29,945 nucleotides of DNA from a virus (lineage: Duplodnaviria > Heunggongvirae > Uroviricota > Caudoviricetes). The translations under genes were made by a program, and so were the position numbers. Each line of letters begins with the position of its first letter. The first letter of the stretch is position 1. The stretch lies in the IMG/VR virus record IMGVR_UViG_3300028898_000252, positions 1 through 29,945 of that record; one strand, 5' to 3'. The notes beneath the pieces were generated by a model. That model saw only the letters and a program-made list of their open reading frames with translations. It searched no databases and was not told where the DNA came from. This document shows, piece by piece, positions 2,675 to 25,381 of the stretch.

Positions 2675-3097
2675 TTAGAATTTAAGATTTCCAGGTCCAA
2701 AAGCTTGCGGAAGCAACTCGCTAATGTTTGTGAATTTTCCGACCTTGCCGCTCGACACGAGCCACACGGGACAGTCCGCAGTGAATTCAGAAATAAACTG
2801 TCTACACGCCCCGCACGGCGACGCAGGATGCTCGCCTCCGACGGCGACCACAATTAGGTCGATTGATTTAGGTTTATATTGAATTAATTCAACCAAAGCA
2901 GCTCTCTCAGCACAAATGGTTAAACCATAAGAAGCATTCTCCACATTGGTTCCATAGACAACAATTTGTTCTTTGTCTTTTAGGGTTGCAACAATCGCGG
3001 CACCAACACTAAAACCAGAATATGGAGAATAAGAGAAATTGCGAAACAAGTCAGTTTGAACAACAACATCTTCATGATTTATATATTTTGCTTTCAT
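2675..3097 (-). CDS. cdd: Cytidine deaminase (homotetrameric type)
   Basis: YSPYSGFSVGAA, GTNVENASYGLTICAERAAL, PCGACRQ, ELLPQAFGP. Confidence 0.95.
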   Translation of the reverse strand: MKAKYINHEDVVVQTDLFRNFSYSPYSGFSVGAAIVATLKDKEQIVVYGTNVENASYGLTICAERAALVELIQYKPKSIDLIVVAVGGEHPASPCGACRQFISEFTADCPVWLVSSGKVGKFTNISELLPQAFGPGNLKF

Positions 3098-20795: not shown

Positions 20796-21398
20796 TCACT
20801 TTCTTTCCAGAACTGTTGAGTGAATAAATCCACCTAGTTTTGACAGATCAGAAACAACATGAAAACGATTCGAAAACATTTTAATTGTTTCTCTGTCGAT
20901 ATTGCACCCAAATTCTTCCTTTGCTTTCTTTTCGACAAACTTCAAAAGAAGTTTCATAAAAAAACTTTCTGGTTTAACATGCTCAAGAAGTAGAATCTTT
21001 CCTTTTTCTGAAAGGACTCGATCCACCTCGTTCATAACTGTTTCTGGATTTCCAAATGTACAAAACCCAAGTTGGCAGACAACAAAATCCATTGAGTTTG
21101 AAGGAATGTCAACCATTGATTCAACATCTGATTGAATTGGCTTAAATTGAATTCCGTGATACAAAGCTTTTCGTTTTGCCGCTTCTAATGCCTCAGAAGA
21201 AATATCAACTCCAGTAACTTCGCAGTCTTGTTCTTGATACAGTGACAAACCTTTGCCTGTCGAAACAGCGAGCTCAAGAACTTTTCCTTTAATTGGGCCA
21301 GCTGTTTCTTTCAGCTTTTGCCGCATAGGAGAAAACAAGTGTTTCTCGGCAAAGTCTGTTTTCTCATCATACGTTCCGTCTCTGTACACCTGTTTCAT
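20796..21398 (-). CDS. Class I SAM-dependent methyltransferase (PmtA/METTL7-like)
   Basis: VLELAVSTG (degenerate motif I), VTGVDIS, DFVVCQLGFC, RVLSEKGKILLLEHV, GCNIDR. Confidence 0.9.
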   Translation of the reverse strand: MKQVYRDGTYDEKTDFAEKHLFSPMRQKLKETAGPIKGKVLELAVSTGKGLSLYQEQDCEVTGVDISSEALEAAKRKALYHGIQFKPIQSDVESMVDIPSNSMDFVVCQLGFCTFGNPETVMNEVDRVLSEKGKILLLEHVKPESFFMKLLLKFVEKKAKEEFGCNIDRETIKMFSNRFHVVSDLSKLGGFIHSTVLERK

Positions 21399-21994: not shown

Positions 21995-22443
21995 TTAGAA
22001 AAATTCGTTTTTTAGTGCTGTGAGACTATCAGACAGCAAGTTATTTTCGGTAACTTCTTTTAGTTCCCAATTTGCTGGTGCAATATCTGCGCGATAATTA
22101 TAACTTTCTTCATCGCGATAGGGAAGAAAAAATACAGAAACAAGTTTTTTTCGTTTTAAACGATATTCATTGATACATTTTTTTATTACTTTTCCGAGAG
22201 AAGTTTTTTGAAACTTGCTTGTTAAAGAATTAAACATATCAACCGTTTGAACTTTATCAAGTTCATTTAACATTTCTTTTATTTCGTTTTCGAAAACTAA
22301 TTTTTGTTCTGGAGAGTCTACTGCGGGAGGCTTTAAACCCTCTTCTCGGAACTTTTCAAGAAAGTCTTTCCCCGCAAGAACTAATGCTTTTCAGATGTGA
22401 AAAGATGAACACCACTTTCAGGGTGAGATGTTAAAATGAACAT
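21995..22443 (-). pseudogene. Gene split by a -1 frameshift near 22388-22395 (FSSE-family-like)
   Basis: ATG 22443 gives MFILTSHPESGVHLFTSEKH*; the -1 frame continues ALVLAGKDFLEKF...EIKEMLNELDK into track ORF 21995..22273. Confidence 0.7.
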
Positions 22444-22445
22444 AG

Positions 22446-22904
22446 TTAATGCCTAACAAACTTAAACCTTGTTTCTTTTAGGAGTTCTTCCTTTGGAGAA
22501 AATTCATGAATTTCAATGGAGTCAAGGCTAACTCCCCAATGTTTCCATTCTGGGCTAACTTCAACCTCTTCTGCCTTTTTGGTTGCAAGCTCTCTAGTTT
22601 CGTGTACTGATTCTAATTTAATATTTCCTTTAGTAGAGCTAAAGGAGTCATATTCTGTAAAGAATACTATTACTGCATATACATTTTCAGCTTCATAAAT
22701 TTCTTTTGAAACTTCCACATCACCATATCCATCCTTAACAAAACTCTGTTTTCTCAAATGTTGAATATTATGAGTTAAAATTCTTGGTTTTCTTTCATAA
22801 GAACTACCCTTGCAACGTTCGCCGCCAGTTGAAGTAGTTTCACAAACCAAAGTCATGTAATATGAAAGTTCTTTTGAGTCACTTGTTTCTTTGTGCCGCT
22901 GCAT
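22446..22904 (-). CDS. Hypothetical protein
   Basis: 152-aa ORF; C-terminal half VYAVIVF...SVHETRELA resembles the FSSE family. Confidence 0.75.
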   Translation of the reverse strand: MQRHKETSDSKELSYYMTLVCETTSTGGERCKGSSYERKPRILTHNIQHLRKQSFVKDGYGDVEVSKEIYEAENVYAVIVFFTEYDSFSSTKGNIKLESVHETRELATKKAEEVEVSPEWKHWGVSLDSIEIHEFSPKEELLKETRFKFVRH

Positions 22905-23247
22905 TGAATTCCTTTTCCCATCTTTTCTTGTTTTCTTCTTCTAGTTTAATTGATTCTTCTGAACGAATCAATTTGCCATTATCAAAATAATGATACCTAA
23001 AATCAGATATACAATGCGAGGCTGCGGTGGTAATATAGCCAATTTCTTCTTTAGAATAAGTTTTAGAAAGAAGGTCTCTATCAATTGCATGATTAAAACA
23101 CTTTATCCCCTCCCAGGAAGCATGTTTGACAGGAAACCCATATGAAGCGAGTAGGTCTCTCAGTTTTTGTTTTTCCTCTTTTGGAAGACCAAAAACATCA
23201 TATGGGATTAATTTAATATCAAGCTTTTCTTTTGGGAGAGAATCCAT
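22879..23247 (-). CDS. Hypothetical protein
   Basis: 122-aa ORF in the array. Confidence 0.75.
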   Translation of the reverse strand: MDSLPKEKLDIKLIPYDVFGLPKEEKQKLRDLLASYGFPVKHASWEGIKCFNHAIDRDLLSKTYSKEEIGYITTAASHCISDFRYHYFDNGKLIRSEESIKLEEENKKRWEKEFNAAAQRNK

Positions 23248-23251
23248 TTTT

Positions 23252-23419
23252 TTACTCCTTATTCTTTTTGCTGATTTTAGAGACGCCTGTTATGACTGCC
23301 CCGAACGCGGCATCCACAATCGAAGAAACAATGTTTCTTTCAATTCTCTTTACCGCTGTCTTCACAACCTTCTCCGCAAGCGAAGCAGGAATTGATTTTT
23401 TAGCTTTTGGTTTTGCCAT
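23252..23419 (-). CDS. Small basic amphipathic protein (55 aa)
   Basis: Start at MAKPKAKK (23419); the track start lies in the tRNA. Confidence 0.65.
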   Translation of the reverse strand: MAKPKAKKSIPASLAEKVVKTAVKRIERNIVSSIVDAAFGAVITGVSKISKKNKE

Positions 23420-23454
23420 TTTATTTCTTTTCTCTTTTTGGTTTATTGTTTTAG

Positions 23455-23541
23455 AGGATAGCACAGGATTCGAACCTGTGGAACTCGTTAGAGTTCAGAA
23501 GTTTTCTAGACTTCCGCCTTAAACCGCTCGGCCAGCTATCC
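23455..23541 (-). tRNA. trnS: tRNA-Ser(AGA), long variable arm, no encoded CCA
   Basis: GGATAGC-TG-GCC-GAGCGGTTTAA-GGC-G-GAAGT-CTAGAAA-ACTTC-TGAACTCTAACGAGTTCC-ACAGG-TTCGAAT-CCTGT-GCTATCC-T; anticodon AGA. Confidence 0.9.
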
Positions 23542-23585
23542 ATTATTTTACTATTATAATTTAACTAGTTTTATTTTGCAGTAGC

Positions 23586-24155
23586 TTACATAAGTTTTTG
23601 AATAATTGCCAAACAAATTTTTATATGTTTATTTAAATCGACTGGATCTGGATCGCCAGAAATAAACCGAAATATTTTTCCTGTTTCTAGTTTAAATTCA
23701 AGAATATTATCTTCTGCAACTCTTATATAAACAATATTTTTATATGCAAATTTTTGATCAAAACCATCCTTTCCGTCAAATAACATTTCCTTTTCAAAAA
23801 GTTTTAGATTGCCATGTTTAACATCATAATTATTTCTTAGTTCTCTTTTGAGAGAACCATTAAATTCTCCATATAGTTTTTTGGTACCATATTTTATGGG
23901 TTCTAAAACCAAACCATTAATTTTCTCTTTAATCTTGTTTTCTTTTTCTTGTTGTTTCTTTATTTTTTCCTGTAAAATTTTATTTTTAATCTTTCGTCTT
24001 TCTTCTTTAAGAGAATCAAAATTTGAAAATTCAACTCTAGTCGCATTTGAAATCTTCTTCGTTTTAATAGATTCCCACAATAAATACACCTTGTCTTCCA
24101 AGAAAGGATCTTGTTTTGAAGAACATATCAAACCTATCAATTGTTCTTCTTTCAT
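23586..24155 (-). CDS. Hypothetical protein; may take an N-terminal TM anchor from 24250 via -1 shift
   Basis: ORF track 23586..24317; first plausible ATG is MKEEQ at 24155. Confidence 0.75.
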   Translation of the reverse strand: MKEEQLIGLICSSKQDPFLEDKVYLLWESIKTKKISNATRVEFSNFDSLKEERRKIKNKILQEKIKKQQEKENKIKEKINGLVLEPIKYGTKKLYGEFNGSLKRELRNNYDVKHGNLKLFEKEMLFDGKDGFDQKFAYKNIVYIRVAEDNILEFKLETGKIFRFISGDPDPVDLNKHIKICLAIIQKLM

Positions 24156-24187
24156 TTTTAAAACTTTTTTATTTATGAAATAACCAT

Positions 24188-24250
24188 CTATTTCTTTAAC
24201 AACGAATAATACGATACCAATACTAATCCAATCAAAATCATCAGTTCCAT
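24188..24250 (-). CDS. 20-aa hydrophobic peptide or frameshifted N-terminus
   Basis: MELMILIGLVLVSYYSLLKK*, the first ATG after the promoter at 24292-24319. Confidence 0.45.
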   Translation of the reverse strand: MELMILIGLVLVSYYSLLKK

Positions 24251-24291
24251 GTTTTATCTTCTTTCTTGTTAGATGTTGCCCCCACACTCCC

Positions 24292-24319
24292 ACCATAAGC
24301 ACGACGTCGGCGCGCACAA
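24292..24319 (-). promoter_or_regulatory. Promoter TTGTGC-N16-TATGGT
   Basis: Same 28-bp geometry; weak -35; lies inside a GC-rich island. Confidence 0.45.
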
Positions 24320-24402
24320 TCCCCCGCAGGACAATCTTAGATTAATTCTGGTTCGCCCGCTGCGAGGGCTCAAGGGACTCGACAGACATGTCGGCGGGTG
24401 TT

Positions 24403-24711
24403 TTAGCCGCGAACCAAATTGGTCACATATCCAGTTGAATAATCATAAACTTTAACTGTCTCAATGTATTTTTCGCCAAGTAAATCATAAACAAGTGCAA
24501 CCTCTTTTTCTTTGCAACCTTCAACAACCGCAGAAGCTCGATCTTCGCAAACATCTCTTGTTAAAATAGTACAAGCTTCTTTGTTATTGTTTGCTGATAA
24601 AATTTCTAATTGAAAATCCATTTCATCTGCTTCTTTTTTAAGATCATTATAGGTGATTTTTTTATCCTTGAGTTTTTTGAGAAGAGTTTCGAATTTTTCG
24701 GTGTTTGTCAT
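24403..24711 (-). CDS. Hypothetical protein
   Basis: 102-aa ORF. Confidence 0.8.
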   Translation of the reverse strand: MTNTEKFETLLKKLKDKKITYNDLKKEADEMDFQLEILSANNNKEACTILTRDVCEDRASAVVEGCKEKEVALVYDLLGEKYIETVKVYDYSTGYVTNLVRG

Positions 24712-24736
24712 TTGGAACTCACTTTCTTTGTTATGT

Positions 24737-24764
24737 TTGACAGTTATGTCCTCATACTTATTTT
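24737..24764 (+). promoter_or_regulatory. Promoter TTGACA-N16-TATTTT, overlapping an ATACTTA motif
   Basis: Ends 5 nt before the kinase ATG (24770). Confidence 0.5.
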
Positions 24765-24769
24765 CTGTA

Positions 24770-25381
24770 ATGAACCTTTTTAATATAATCTTCGAAAAAC
24801 TCTCTGTAAATACGGAGGCAAAAGTTTTGTCTCAGGTTCTAGCTAAAAAATCCTCTCATAAAGAAGTTCTTGAATTTTGTTCTTCTAGGTTTCCATTAAT
24901 TGGTGAAGGCTTTTCGAGAAAAGTATTTGATGCTGGGGAAGGTATTGTTATTAAAGTTGCCGCGACTGAATTTAACACAAACCAAAACAAAAGAGAAATC
25001 GAACTAAAAGAAACTTGCCACGCAGACAAGTATTTTACAAAAATTTTCTCATATGATTTAGTTGGTTTCATTTGGTTGATTGCGGAAAAACTAAAACCTG
25101 TAGCGTCAGAAGAAGAATTTCGCGAAATAATTTTAACCAAACTTAAAGGAATTGATTCGGAAGTTTTTAGAGCAATCCAAATAAACAAAAATCCTTCTGA
25201 TACTTTTATTGGTGTTGTAATCGAAGTTATGAACAAAGACAATGATTTTAAGGTTAATCGTTGGCTTGCGAATTTTTGCGAAGTTTTAAATAGTTGCAAA
25301 ATTGATCCAAGTGACTTTACTCCAGAAAATTGGGGAATCCGTTCAAATGGTGAACTTGTTGTTTTGGATTATGGCTTATGA
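24770..25381 (+). CDS. Minimal protein kinase-like protein
   Basis: IGEGFSRKVF (Gly loop), VIKVA, REIE (helix C Glu), DFTPENWG (DxxxxN), VVLDYG; ends right after DYG. Confidence 0.88.
   Translation: MNLFNIIFEKLSVNTEAKVLSQVLAKKSSHKEVLEFCSSRFPLIGEGFSRKVFDAGEGIVIKVAATEFNTNQNKREIELKETCHADKYFTKIFSYDLVGFIWLIAEKLKPVASEEEFREIILTKLKGIDSEVFRAIQINKNPSDTFIGVVIEVMNKDNDFKVNRWLANFCEVLNSCKIDPSDFTPENWGIRSNGELVVLDYGL

What the first reader, a model, noticed from the sequence alone, without database searches (positions are those of the whole stretch)
23455..23541. tRNA-Ser with an A34 (AGA) anticodon
In bacteria A34/I34 tRNAs are essentially limited to Arg(ACG), with a few Leu(AAG) cases; Ser(AGA) is typical of eukaryotes (established). 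This tRNA has a bacterial Ser-type D loop, perfect stems and a long variable arm, so it looks maintained, although U73 is atypical. It matches UCU, which appears common here. It is unknown whether A34 stays unmodified or is deaminated by host TadA or a phage enzyme.
Basis: partly seen in the sequence, partly recalled or inferred. Interest (0 to 1): 0.75.

Follow-up and report, generated by a model that had tools for sequence, protein, structure and literature searches.

The report
Conserved phage serine tRNA, anticodon AGA
A giant uncultured phage carries an intact serine tRNA whose anticodon starts with adenine, a type nearly absent from bacteria; diverged relatives keep it, it pairs exactly with the phage's commonest serine codon (UCU), and it gives a natural case for asking why such tRNAs are normally avoided.

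Summary
Window 23455-23541 (minus strand) is a well-formed class II tRNA-Ser with anticodon AGA (A34) and discriminator U73. It is the only serine tRNA among the 21 tRNAs of a complete 390,884-bp T4-like jumbo phage (33% GC, standard code).

It is neither a sequencing error nor a singleton mutation. Assemblies from five samples are identical over the locus. A diverged syntenic lineage (neighbouring proteins 50-96% identical) keeps AGA and U73. Its tRNA differs at 16-17 of 87 positions, and all but one or two lie in stems and keep the pairing (seven compensated pairs).

UCU is the phage's top serine codon (35%). The phage encodes no TadA-like enzyme. Its two deaminase-fold genes are a cytidine deaminase and a small enzyme with the same fold. 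The loop CUAGAAA does not fit published TadA consensus motifs. Two E. coli studies found AGA anticodons unmodified, and one found them nearly UCU-specific.

Most likely this is an unmodified-A34, UCU-dedicated tRNA-Ser charged by the host SerRS. Inosine formation and escape from anticodon nucleases remain possible.

Ser(AGA) genes also occur in at least three other phage tRNA families in IMG/VR, but on only three contigs among 185,579 prokaryotic species genomes. This scan noted Ser(AGA) earlier in a Streptomyces phage and A34 tRNA sets in a peat phage; I did not test those notes.

The parts
23455..23541 (-). tRNA-Ser gene, class II (long variable arm), 87 nt from G1 to discriminator U73; no CCA encoded
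   Evidence: ARAGORN. Rfam RF00005 at 52.4 bits, E 1e-8. Cloverleaf recovered by RNAalifold on three orthologous variants, with 7 compensated pairs.
23505..23507 (-). Anticodon AGA (A34 at 23507, G35 at 23506, A36 at 23505) within the loop CUAGAAA
   Evidence: Direct reading. Invariant in orthologues L113, L114, L115, L117 and L118 and identical in contigs from five samples.
23553..23558 (-). Perfect TATAAT -10 hexamer, 11 nt upstream of the tRNA 5' end; inferred dedicated promoter
   Evidence: Direct reading. TATAAT is conserved at the same place in L113/L114/L118 and L115, while the surrounding spacer has diverged. The generic promoter scan did not call it because the -35 element is weak.
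23576..23581 (-). -35-like hexamer CTGCAA, 17 nt upstream of the TATAAT (TTGCAT in L113, with a 16-nt spacer; TTGCAA in L115, with 17 nt)
   Evidence: Direct reading of the alignment. Matches TTGACA at only 3-4 of 6 positions, so this is an inference.
23449..23454 (-). 3' trailer C-TAAAA directly after the discriminator. About nine of the phage's 21 tRNAs share the pattern of discriminator, C, then TAA(A/T). 3' trimming and CCA addition by host enzymes are implied.
   Evidence: Script over all 21 tRNAs. No CCA-adding enzyme family (PF01743) found in the phage.
23586..24317 (-). Upstream neighbour, 243-aa ORF of unknown function; 77% identical to the 234-aa ORF upstream of the tRNA in L113
23252..23419 (-). 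Downstream neighbour, 55-aa ORF (starts MAKPKAK), 96% identical in L113; it anchors the synteny of the tRNA slot

Best explanation
This is a functional, selection-maintained phage tRNA-Ser with a genomically encoded A34 (anticodon AGA). I infer that it is transcribed from its own TATAAT promoter. The host would process its 5' end (RNase P), trim its 3' trailer and add CCA. The host SerRS would then charge it through the long variable arm and the G1-C72/G2-C71/A3-U70 acceptor stem. Most likely A34 stays unmodified. The tRNA would then read UCU, the phage's most frequent serine codon, by a Watson-Crick A34-U pair, with at most weak reading of UCC and little or none of UCA and UCG. It would act as a dedicated UCU supplement to the host tRNA pool during infection. 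This fits the rule seen for this phage's tRNAs in the Thr, Pro, Ala, Gly, Arg (AGA), Gln, Lys and Glu (UUC) families, whose anticodons are Watson-Crick cognate to the phage's top codon. Shown here: the gene, its structure, its conservation with compensatory changes, the codon match, and the absence of a phage TadA. Inferred: transcription, processing, charging, the unmodified state and the decoding range.
For: (1) Structure. Rfam scores 52.4 bits, all stems are perfect, and the loop CUAGAAA is canonical, with U33 and A36-A37-A38 as in NGA serine tRNAs.

(2) Not an artefact. Contigs from five samples are identical over the locus.

(3) Selection. The syntenic lineage L113/L114/L117/L118 and the variant L115 have neighbouring proteins 50-96% identical to the window's. 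Their tRNAs differ from the window's at 17 and 16 of 87 positions. In L113, 16 of the 17 differences lie in stems. Fourteen form 7 fully compensated pairs and 2 give G-U pairs, so every stem change keeps its pair. The anticodon loop, the T loop and U73 are invariant.

(4) Promoter. A TATAAT box 8-11 nt upstream is conserved while the spacer around it has diverged.

(5) Codon match. TCT accounts for 35% of serine codons (rank 1 of 6) and TCA for 26%. For Thr, Pro, Ala, Gly, Arg (AGA), Gln, Lys and Glu (UUC), the phage anticodon is likewise Watson-Crick cognate to the top codon. TCT is also the top serine codon in the L113 contig.

(6) Dependence on the host. AGA is the phage's only serine tRNA. 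The phage has no class II aaRS core of the SerRS type (PF00587) and no CCA-adding enzyme.

(7) Against deamination. The NCBIfam TadA model finds nothing in the complete genome, and PF14437 scores only 15.9 bits. One deaminase-fold ORF is a cytidine deaminase (TIGR01354, 116.9 bits). The other is a 117-aa protein whose model (pLDDT 86.8) best matches tetrameric cytidine and blasticidin-S deaminases, not TadA. Published TadA consensus motifs are YUACGAA (E. coli) and YUAMGRA (S. pyogenes) (PMC11472039). This loop differs from both at positions 35 and 36.

(8) Experiments by others. E. coli serX carrying G34A gives a mature, unmodified, tolerated Ser-tRNA(AGA) (bioRxiv 10.64898/2026.05.15.725136). 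An orthogonal tRNA with anticodon AGA read UCU at 19.7% and UCC at 1.4%, with UCA and UCG below detection. Only 3 of the 15 A34 tRNAs tested in that study showed any inosine (PMC11066159).
Against: - The host is unknown, so neither its TadA specificity nor its UCU usage and tRNA pool could be examined.
- No RNA data were available. Expression, charging and the state of A34 are all inferred.
- U73 departs from the G73 of E. coli-type tRNA-Ser, and I know of no direct measurement of SerRS activity on U73.
- The conserved A34 alone is weak evidence, because a neutral site would survive about 20% divergence four times in five. The argument rests on the tRNA staying under structural selection while it carried A34.
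- The codon-match rule has exceptions in this phage: Leu(UAG) and Leu(CAA) are cognate to rank 4 and rank 3 codons, and there is no A34 tRNA for GUU (60% of Val).
- Three relatives lack the tRNA in this slot, two of them closest by the neighbouring 122-aa protein: L111 (96% identical), L112 (93%) and L120 (66%). The tRNA is therefore dispensable for some lineages.
Confidence: 0.6

Rival explanations
1. A34 is deaminated to inosine by a host TadA with widened specificity, or by a non-TadA deaminase such as the phage's 117-aa HAEAR...PCxxC protein. One phage tRNA would then read UCU, UCC and UCA, which is eukaryote-like I34 decoding and would cover 68% of the phage's serine codons.
For: - Some Firmicute TadA enzymes have widened their range to tRNA-Leu(AAG) (PMC11472039).
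- Oenococcus oeni encodes four A34 tRNAs, two of which are modified (PMC11066159).
- 88% of bacteria with a non-ACG A34 tRNA encode a TadA homologue.
- UCU, UCC and UCA together make up 68% of serine codons, and the phage has no other serine tRNA.
- The phage encodes an unclassified zinc deaminase family with an invariant HAE...C..C motif.
Against: - The loop CUAGAAA differs from both known TadA consensus motifs at positions 35 and 36.
- AGA was not modified in two E. coli studies.
- No TadA was found in the complete phage genome.
- The 117-aa protein folds like tetrameric cytidine and blasticidin-S deaminases, and its chain ends about 27 residues after the PCxxC motif. TadA, from my knowledge, has an additional C-terminal helix that contacts the tRNA.
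- Homologues of the 117-aa protein occur in relatives G001 and G006, in whose tRNA regions no Ser(AGA) was found. No homologue was found in seven of the eight other Ser(AGA) contigs, most of which are fragments.
Confidence: 0.2
2. The main benefit is counter-defence. A serine tRNA with A34 escapes host anticodon nucleases, or other tRNA-targeting immunity, that recognise the host's U34- or G34-modified tRNA-Ser(NGA). Serine decoding would then continue when host tRNA-Ser is cleaved.
For: - Phage tRNAs with anticodon-loop changes are proposed to evade anticodon nucleases, and tRNA-Ser(NGA) species are known VapC targets (PMC10264068).
- Several defence systems cleave tRNAs and are countered by phage tRNAs (titles and abstracts).
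- The tRNA sits as a movable cassette in a variable slot, present in some relatives and replaced in others. Accessory counter-defence genes often show this pattern.
Against: - The VapC cleavage described for tRNA-Ser is at the GA of the anticodon, which AGA retains. The same paper lists Ser(aga) among the avoided anticodons.
- No nuclease specific for tRNA-Ser position 34 is known to me.
- The exact match to the top serine codon is explained more simply by decoding.
- This reading does not exclude the decoding role.
Confidence: 0.12
3. It is a dead or neutral gene: a recent T-to-A or G-to-A mutation of a Ser(UGA/GGA) tRNA, or a sequencing error, with no function.
For: - A34 is one mutation away from UGA or GGA.
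- Every other four-fold-box tRNA of this phage has U34.
- Some close relatives lack the gene.
Against: - Contigs from five samples are identical.
- AGA is shared by lineages whose tRNAs differ at 16-17 positions, with seven compensated pairs and no unpaired stem change.
- The -10 box is conserved.
- A second, unrelated phage tRNA family also keeps AGA, across five compensated pairs.
Confidence: 0.03

Closest known systems
Engineered E. coli Ser-tRNA(AGA) (serX G34A; Raval, Lim, Gallie and Agashe, bioRxiv 10.64898/2026.05.15.725136) and an orthogonal tRNA with anticodon AGA (PMC11066159)
   Same: Both put the anticodon AGA in a bacterial cell. The serX version, on a bacterial tRNA-Ser body, was matured, tolerated and left unmodified at A34. 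The orthogonal version showed a strong preference for UCU.
   Different: Those are laboratory point mutants or orthogonal constructs. This is a natural gene kept by selection in a phage lineage, with U73 and its own promoter. Its modification state and decoding range have not been measured.
Eukaryotic cytosolic tRNA-Ser(AGA), read as IGA after ADAT2/3 deamination
   Same: The genomic anticodon is the same, on a class II serine tRNA.
   Different: The eukaryotic tRNA is deaminated by heterodimeric ADAT2/3 and reads UCU, UCC and UCA. Here no ADAT- or TadA-like gene is present in the phage, and the body is of bacterial type in its D arm, T arm and acceptor stem.
Bacterial non-Arg A34 tRNAs: Leu(AAG) of Lactobacillales and Streptococcus pyogenes, the A34 set of Oenococcus oeni, and Thr(AGU) of Mollicutes
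   Same: All have A34 in a four-fold box in AT-rich genomes rich in U-ending codons. Some are edited to I34 and some are left as A.
   Different: The amino-acid box differs (Ser). The gene is carried by a phage, not a cell. In those bacteria ANN replaces GNN beside other isoacceptors, whereas here AGA is the only serine tRNA the phage brings.
Other phage tRNA-Ser(AGA) genes found here in IMG/VR: L121/L122/L125/L127/L128, L123/L124 and L126
   Same: All are class II tRNA-Ser genes with the loop CUAGAAA on phage contigs. The first family keeps AGA across five compensated pairs.
   Different: They are not orthologous to the window's tRNA. No BLAST match to the window's tRNA was found among deposited phages, and the specific patterns found nothing. 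Most (L121-L124, L126) sit inside arrays of 20-36 tRNAs together with Ser(UGA) and Ser(GCU), and most have G73 and an encoded CCA. L121, L122 and L127 also carry Thr(AGU).
Phage T4 tRNA cluster (from my knowledge, not tested here)
   Same: The virus is T4-like (Gp23-type capsid protein) and carries its own tRNAs. Several of them lack an encoded CCA and so depend on host 3' processing and CCA addition.
   Different: As far as I recall, the T4 serine tRNA has a U34-type anticodon. No A34 serine tRNA is described for T4.

Membership tests
Bacterial-type class II tRNA-Ser | Cloverleaf that scores above the Rfam tRNA gathering threshold | tested here: met
   RF00005 at 52.4 bits against a gathering score of 29, over the full model; ARAGORN calls tRNA-Ser.
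Bacterial-type class II tRNA-Ser | Long variable arm (stem-loop), the main SerRS identity element | tested here: met
   A 6-bp stem (GAACUC/GAGUUC) with a 4-nt loop. The stem is kept in all three variants, with one C-to-U change that gives a G-U pair.
Bacterial-type class II tRNA-Ser | Ser-type D arm (3-bp stem with G13-A22, G18G19, extra residues in the D loop) and an acceptor stem starting G1-C72, G2-C71, A3-U70 | tested here: met
   Direct reading. The D arm UGGCCGAGCGGUUUAAGGC is close to E. coli tRNA-Ser; that comparison is from memory.
Bacterial-type class II tRNA-Ser | Discriminator G73 | tested here: not met
   U73, invariant in L113 and L115. U73 also occurs in other phage Ser tRNAs: L126, G009_tga and Atu_ph07. 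Its effect on charging is unknown.
Bacterial-type class II tRNA-Ser | Aminoacylation with serine | not testable with these tools
   No RNA or biochemical data. No phage class II aaRS core of the SerRS type, so a host enzyme would have to charge it.
I34 tRNAs (TadA/ADAT substrates) | Genomically encoded A34 | tested here: met
I34 tRNAs (TadA/ADAT substrates) | Anticodon loop that fits a known bacterial TadA recognition motif (YUACGAA, or YUAMGRA in S. pyogenes) | tested here: not met
   The loop is CUAGAAA: G at position 35 where the motifs have C (or A/C), and A at position 36 where they have G. Motifs from PMC11472039.
I34 tRNAs (TadA/ADAT substrates) | A tRNA adenosine deaminase available, here one encoded by the phage | tested here: not met
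   NF008113 finds no match and PF14437 scores 15.9 bits against a cut-off of 27. The two CDA-fold ORFs are a cytidine deaminase and a protein with a cytidine/blasticidin-S deaminase fold. The host enzyme is unknown.
I34 tRNAs (TadA/ADAT substrates) | Inosine at position 34 in the mature RNA | not testable with these tools
   Needs tRNA sequencing or RNase T1 mapping.
Phage-encoded tRNAs that match phage codon usage (codon compensation) | Encoded in a phage genome next to phage genes | tested here: met
   Complete 390,884-bp record with direct terminal repeats, a Gp23-type capsid gene and 21 tRNAs.
Phage-encoded tRNAs that match phage codon usage (codon compensation) | Cognate codon frequent in the phage | tested here: met
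   TCT at 35% of serine codons, rank 1 of 6, and 34-38% in five of six genome regions (24% in 300-330 kb).
Phage-encoded tRNAs that match phage codon usage (codon compensation) | Cognate codon or tRNA under-supplied in the host | not testable with these tools
   Host not identified.

The most novel reading that the evidence does not exclude
Phages are a natural reservoir of four-fold-box A34 tRNAs, which a recent preprint lists as absent from bacteria and from phages. In this phage Ser(AGA) would then be converted to IGA by an enzyme outside the TadA family, for example the small HAEAR...PCxxC deaminase, or by a retuned host TadA. That would give eukaryote-style inosine decoding of serine in a bacterial cell. 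Alternatively, A34 could be an escape from a tRNA-Ser-specific defence nuclease.
Probability: 0.15. Interest if true: 0.85.

Novelty: new variant of a known kind. Interest (0 to 1): 0.58.

Why it matters
Reviews and a 2026 preprint treat A34 anticodons of four-fold boxes other than Arg(ACG), with rare Leu(AAG) and Thr(AGU) cases, as missing from prokaryotes. The preprint adds organelles of bacterial origin and bacteriophages, and calls their absence a paradox because engineered versions are harmless in E. coli.

Here a natural Ser(AGA) gene is shown to have been kept under structural selection across diverged phage lineages. It matches the phage's top serine codon. Further phage Ser(AGA) families exist, while a matching pattern occurs on only three contigs among 185,579 prokaryotic species genomes.

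This gives natural material for several tests:
- whether unmodified A34 is a precise U-reader or a four-way reader;
- whether any bacterial system makes I34 on a serine tRNA;
- how SerRS handles U73;
- whether phage tRNA sets are tuned by Watson-Crick matching to phage codon use.

It also cautions that tRNA surveys based on cultured phages miss such anticodons.

Tried and rejected
- **Deposited phages.** A megablast of window 22000-25000 and a blastn of the tRNA against 50,697 deposited phages found nothing.
- **Exact-pattern scans for orthologues.** Scans of IMG/VR and of JGI metagenomes found nothing. Records of the window's own genome or of very near ones may be left out of these scans.
- **Upstream ORF as a probe.** The search for related loci with the 243-aa upstream ORF found no relative.
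- **Capsid-based relatives.** These are at most 65% identical over full or partial matches. Their Ser tRNAs are only 41-58% identical to the window's and are not orthologous. The ARAGORN calls of Ile(aat) and Tyr(ata) there have odd loops (no U33, a pyrimidine at 37, or a 9-nt loop), so I did not count them as A34 tRNAs.
- **55-aa ORF homologues.** P0025 and P0026 lie on short contigs without a serine tRNA.
- **The 117-aa deaminase as a tRNA editor.** The fold search favours cytidine and blasticidin-S deaminases. Its distribution does not follow Ser(AGA).
- **A 164-aa deaminase in the unrelated Ser(AGA) phage G029.** It gives only weak, ambiguous matches: TadA 24 bits against a cut-off of 150, ComEB 20 bits. 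Left unresolved.
- **Cultured phages carrying Ser(AGA).** BLAST with four metagenomic or MAG-derived Ser(AGA) tRNAs turned up none among the five hits inspected. It did turn up Ser(ACU) in Rhizobium phage RHph_TM2_3B.
- **The neighbouring SAM methyltransferase.** It is generic and has no link to tRNA.
- **Literature.** Searches found no paper describing phage A34 serine tRNAs.
- **Host.** I did not try to identify the host.

Full report
**Observation.** ARAGORN finds four tRNAs in the window. One is tRNA-Ser(aga) at 23454-23541 on the minus strand. Rfam's tRNA model matches 23455-23541 at 52.4 bits (gathering score 29, E 1e-8) over its full length.

Read directly, the gene has these features:
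- a perfect 7-bp acceptor stem;
- a Ser-type D arm (UG-GCCG-AGCGGUUUAA-GGC, with G13 opposite A22);
- a 5-bp anticodon stem closing the loop C-U-A-G-A-A-A;
- a 6-bp variable stem with a 4-nt loop;
- a canonical T arm;
- discriminator U73 and no encoded CCA.

The anticodon is at 23505-23507.

**Context.** The window is the first 29,945 bases of a 390,884-bp virus record with direct terminal repeats, rated complete. The genome has 33% GC and 21 tRNAs. It has a Gp23-type capsid gene, so the virus is a T4-like jumbo phage. Stop-to-stop coverage is high under the standard code, so the genome is not recoded, although it carries a tRNA(CUA).

AGA is the phage's only serine tRNA. All its other four-fold-box tRNAs have U34: Leu UAG, Thr UGU, Gly UCC, Ala UGC and Pro UGG.

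**Not an error.** Looking up the neighbouring 122-aa and 243-aa proteins by identity returned contigs from five samples: three SRA runs and two JGI metagenomes. All are 100% identical to the window over 1-6 kb, including the tRNA.

**Not a singleton.** Homologues of the 122-aa neighbour exist at 96, 93, 66, 64 and 60% identity. I fetched their contigs.

The 64% lineage (L113, L114, L117, L118) and a variant with a different upstream context (L115) carry tRNA-Ser(aga) in the same slot, just upstream of the conserved 55-aa ORF. Syntenic proteins between the window and L113 are 50-96% identical.

The tRNAs differ from the window's at 17 (L113) and 16 (L115) of 87 positions. In L113:
- 14 differences form seven fully compensated pairs: two in the acceptor stem, one in the D stem, one in the anticodon stem and three in the T stem;
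- two give G-U pairs;
- one lies in the D loop.

The anticodon loop, the T loop and U73 do not change.

The survival of A34 alone would not be significant at 20% divergence. The tRNA nevertheless stayed under strict structural selection while it carried A34, so the A34 form is the functional form. A perfect TATAAT box 8-11 nt upstream, with a weak -35-like TTGCAA/TTGCAT/CTGCAA 16-17 nt before it, is conserved while the surrounding spacer has diverged. The generic promoter scan does not call it, so I give it as an inference.

**The slot is variable.** Three relatives have no tRNA there, two of them closest by the 122-aa protein: L111 (96% identical), L112 (93%) and L120 (66%). In its place they have repeated hairpins (GTTTGCCGCG-loop-CGCGGCTTTG) and a TTGACA-N16-TAACAT promoter-like module in front of the same 55-aa ORF. 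In L119 (60%) the slot holds no tRNA and no 55-aa ORF. The tRNA therefore behaves as an accessory cassette in a mosaic region. L114 has a TnpB-like gene (PF07282) two genes upstream.

**Codon match.** I called 481 ORFs covering 91% of the genome with a simple greedy caller. In these, TCT is 35% of serine codons (rank 1 of 6), TCA 26%, AGT 15%, TCG 9%, AGC 8% and TCC 7%.

In the Thr, Pro, Ala and Gly boxes the A-ending codon leads, and the phage carries the matching U34 tRNA. For Ser the U-ending codon leads, and the phage carries A34. Nine of its anticodons are Watson-Crick cognate to the top codon of their family. The exceptions are Leu(UAG), Leu(CAA), Ile(UAU), Glu(CUC) and the G34 tRNAs of two-fold boxes and of Ile. 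TCT stays at 34-38% in five of six genome regions (24% in 300-330 kb) and also leads in the L113 contig.

**Modification.** The complete genome has no match to the NCBIfam TadA model and only a 15.9-bit match to PF14437. PF00383 finds two ORFs.
- Window 2675-3097 (minus strand) is a tetrameric-type cytidine deaminase (TIGR01354, 116.9 bits).
- A 117-aa ORF at about 348.4-348.7 kb belongs to a small metagenomic family with an invariant HAEAR...C..C motif. Its AlphaFold model (pLDDT 86.8) best matches tetrameric cytidine deaminases and blasticidin-S deaminase (TM 0.6-0.69), not TadA.

Homologues of the 117-aa protein occur in relatives G001 and G006, in whose tRNA regions no Ser(AGA) was found. 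No homologue was found in seven of the eight other Ser(AGA) contigs, most of which are fragments.

Published TadA editing motifs are YUACGAA in E. coli and YUAMGRA in S. pyogenes (PMC11472039). The loop CUAGAAA differs at positions 35 and 36.

Two experimental studies bear on this directly:
- E. coli serX with G34A yields a mature, unmodified, well-tolerated Ser-tRNA(AGA) (bioRxiv 10.64898/2026.05.15.725136).
- An orthogonal tRNA with anticodon AGA read UCU at 19.7% and UCC at 1.4%, with UCA and UCG below detection. Only 3 of the 15 A34 anticodons tested showed any inosine (PMC11066159).

I therefore favour an unmodified A34 that acts as a near-dedicated UCU reader. Inosine remains possible because the host is unknown.

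**Dependence on the host.** The phage has no class II aaRS core of the SerRS type (PF00587) and no CCA-adding enzyme. The tRNA's 3' trailer, C-TAAAA after the discriminator, recurs in similar form at about nine of the 21 phage tRNAs. This suggests a common 3' processing route followed by host CCA addition.

**How rare is it?** I scanned for a pattern combining a Ser-type D arm, the loop CTAGAAA and GGTTCGAATCC.
- In IMG/VR it matches eight contigs, and that scan was complete. ARAGORN confirms Ser(aga) in all eight. They fall into at least three sequence families: L121/L122/L125/L127/L128, L123/L124 and L126. L121-L124 and L126 hold it inside arrays of 20-36 tRNAs beside Ser(UGA) and Ser(GCU), and L121, L122 and L127 also carry Thr(AGU).
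- The first family keeps AGA across five compensated pairs.
- Among one genome for each of 185,579 prokaryotic species, the AGA pattern matches only three contigs, all short MAG contigs of 855 bp to 10 kb.

The preprint counts 695 non-ACG A34 genes among 246,393 bacterial tRNAs and states that four-fold-box ANN tRNAs are absent from bacteriophages. My scans show that this statement does not hold for uncultured phages. I found no paper that describes phage Ser(AGA).

Earlier notes of this scan report Ser(AGA) in a Streptomyces phage group and an A34 tRNA set in a peat phage. I did not test those notes.

**Verdict.** This is a real, conserved, probably expressed phage tRNA-Ser(AGA).
- Best reading (about 0.6): an unmodified-A34, UCU-dedicated supplement charged by the host SerRS.
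- Rivals: I34 formation (0.2), escape from tRNA-targeting defence (0.12, and not exclusive of the decoding role), and a dead gene or artefact (0.03).
- Class: a new variant of a known kind, namely a phage-encoded tRNA with an anticodon class held to be absent from bacteria and phages.
- Interest: moderate to high for tRNA and phage translation biology.

Noticed in passing
L111:1-110, L112:400-640, L120:190-430 (relatives' loci): In three relatives (neighbouring 122-aa protein 96%, 93% and 66% identical) the tRNA slot is filled by repeated hairpins (GTTTGCCGCG-loop-CGCGGCTTTG) and a TTGACA-N16-TAACAT promoter-like module in front of the same 55-aa ORF. The hairpin repeat is absent from the window's own genome.
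   Followed up: partly
G000:C1:61455-61527 (+), outside the window: There is a tRNA with anticodon CUA (amber suppressor type) although ORF coverage shows the genome uses the standard code. Earlier notes of this scan link it to a UAG-interrupted peptidyl-tRNA hydrolase gene.
   Followed up: no
G000:C1:348353-348706 (-) = L003:1465-1818 (-): A 117-aa zinc deaminase belongs to a small unnamed metagenomic family (18 clusters) with an invariant HAEAR...C..C motif. It has a cytidine/blasticidin-S deaminase-like fold, and its substrate is unknown.
   Followed up: partly
L130 (Rhizobium phage RHph_TM2_3B, MN988523.1 127413-127502): This cultured phage has an annotated, well-formed tRNA-Ser with anticodon ACU, that is, A34 in the split AGN box.
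   Followed up: no
L121:7547-7622, L122:2840-2915, L127:4134-4207: tRNA-Thr(AGU) genes lie 230-330 nt from tRNA-Ser(AGA) in the same phage tRNA arrays, so some phages carry several four-fold-box A34 tRNAs. The 118 control loci also held 4 Thr(agt), 1 Leu(aag), 1 His(atg) and 1 Ser(act) among 588 tRNAs.
   Followed up: no
window 20796-21398 (-): A 200-aa class I SAM methyltransferase (UbiE/Methyltransf_11-like, generic) is 95% identical between the window and L113, while its neighbours are 50-81% identical. It is the most conserved protein of the neighbourhood after the 55-aa ORF.
   Followed up: partly
L114:306-1379: A TnpB-like gene (PF07282, Cas12f1-like TNB) sits two genes upstream of the tRNA-Ser(AGA) in one relative only. 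This suggests a mobile element inserted next to the slot.
   Followed up: no
whole genome G000, 21 tRNA genes: About nine tRNAs share a 3' trailer of the form discriminator-C-TAA(A/T). Seven others encode CCA. This may mean two 3'-end maturation classes within one phage.
   Followed up: no
L252, L253, L254 (MAG contigs JAFZKK010000036.1, JBEKZK010000506.1, JBFLFU010000020.1): These are the only three Ser(AGA) pattern matches among 185,579 species genomes. They lie on short contigs of MAGs (Salinivirgaceae, Xanthobacteraceae, Flexilinea). The 855-bp Flexilinea contig has 40% GC and a U73 tRNA, and may be phage DNA binned with the MAG.
   Followed up: no
L087:3353-3427, L094:694-767, L102:636-1177 (capsid-based relatives G002, G001, G015): These tRNA-shaped genes, called Ile(aat) or Tyr(ata) by ARAGORN, have non-canonical anticodon loops (G33, C37 or a 9-nt loop). 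They are probably not ordinary decoders.
   Followed up: no
L257:1360-1854 (G029, a complete 191-kb phage with Ser(AGA)): A 164-aa deaminase gives weak, ambiguous matches to TadA (24 bits, cut-off 150) and ComEB. It could be a dCMP deaminase, but it deserves a proper look because this phage also carries Ser(AGA).
   Followed up: partly
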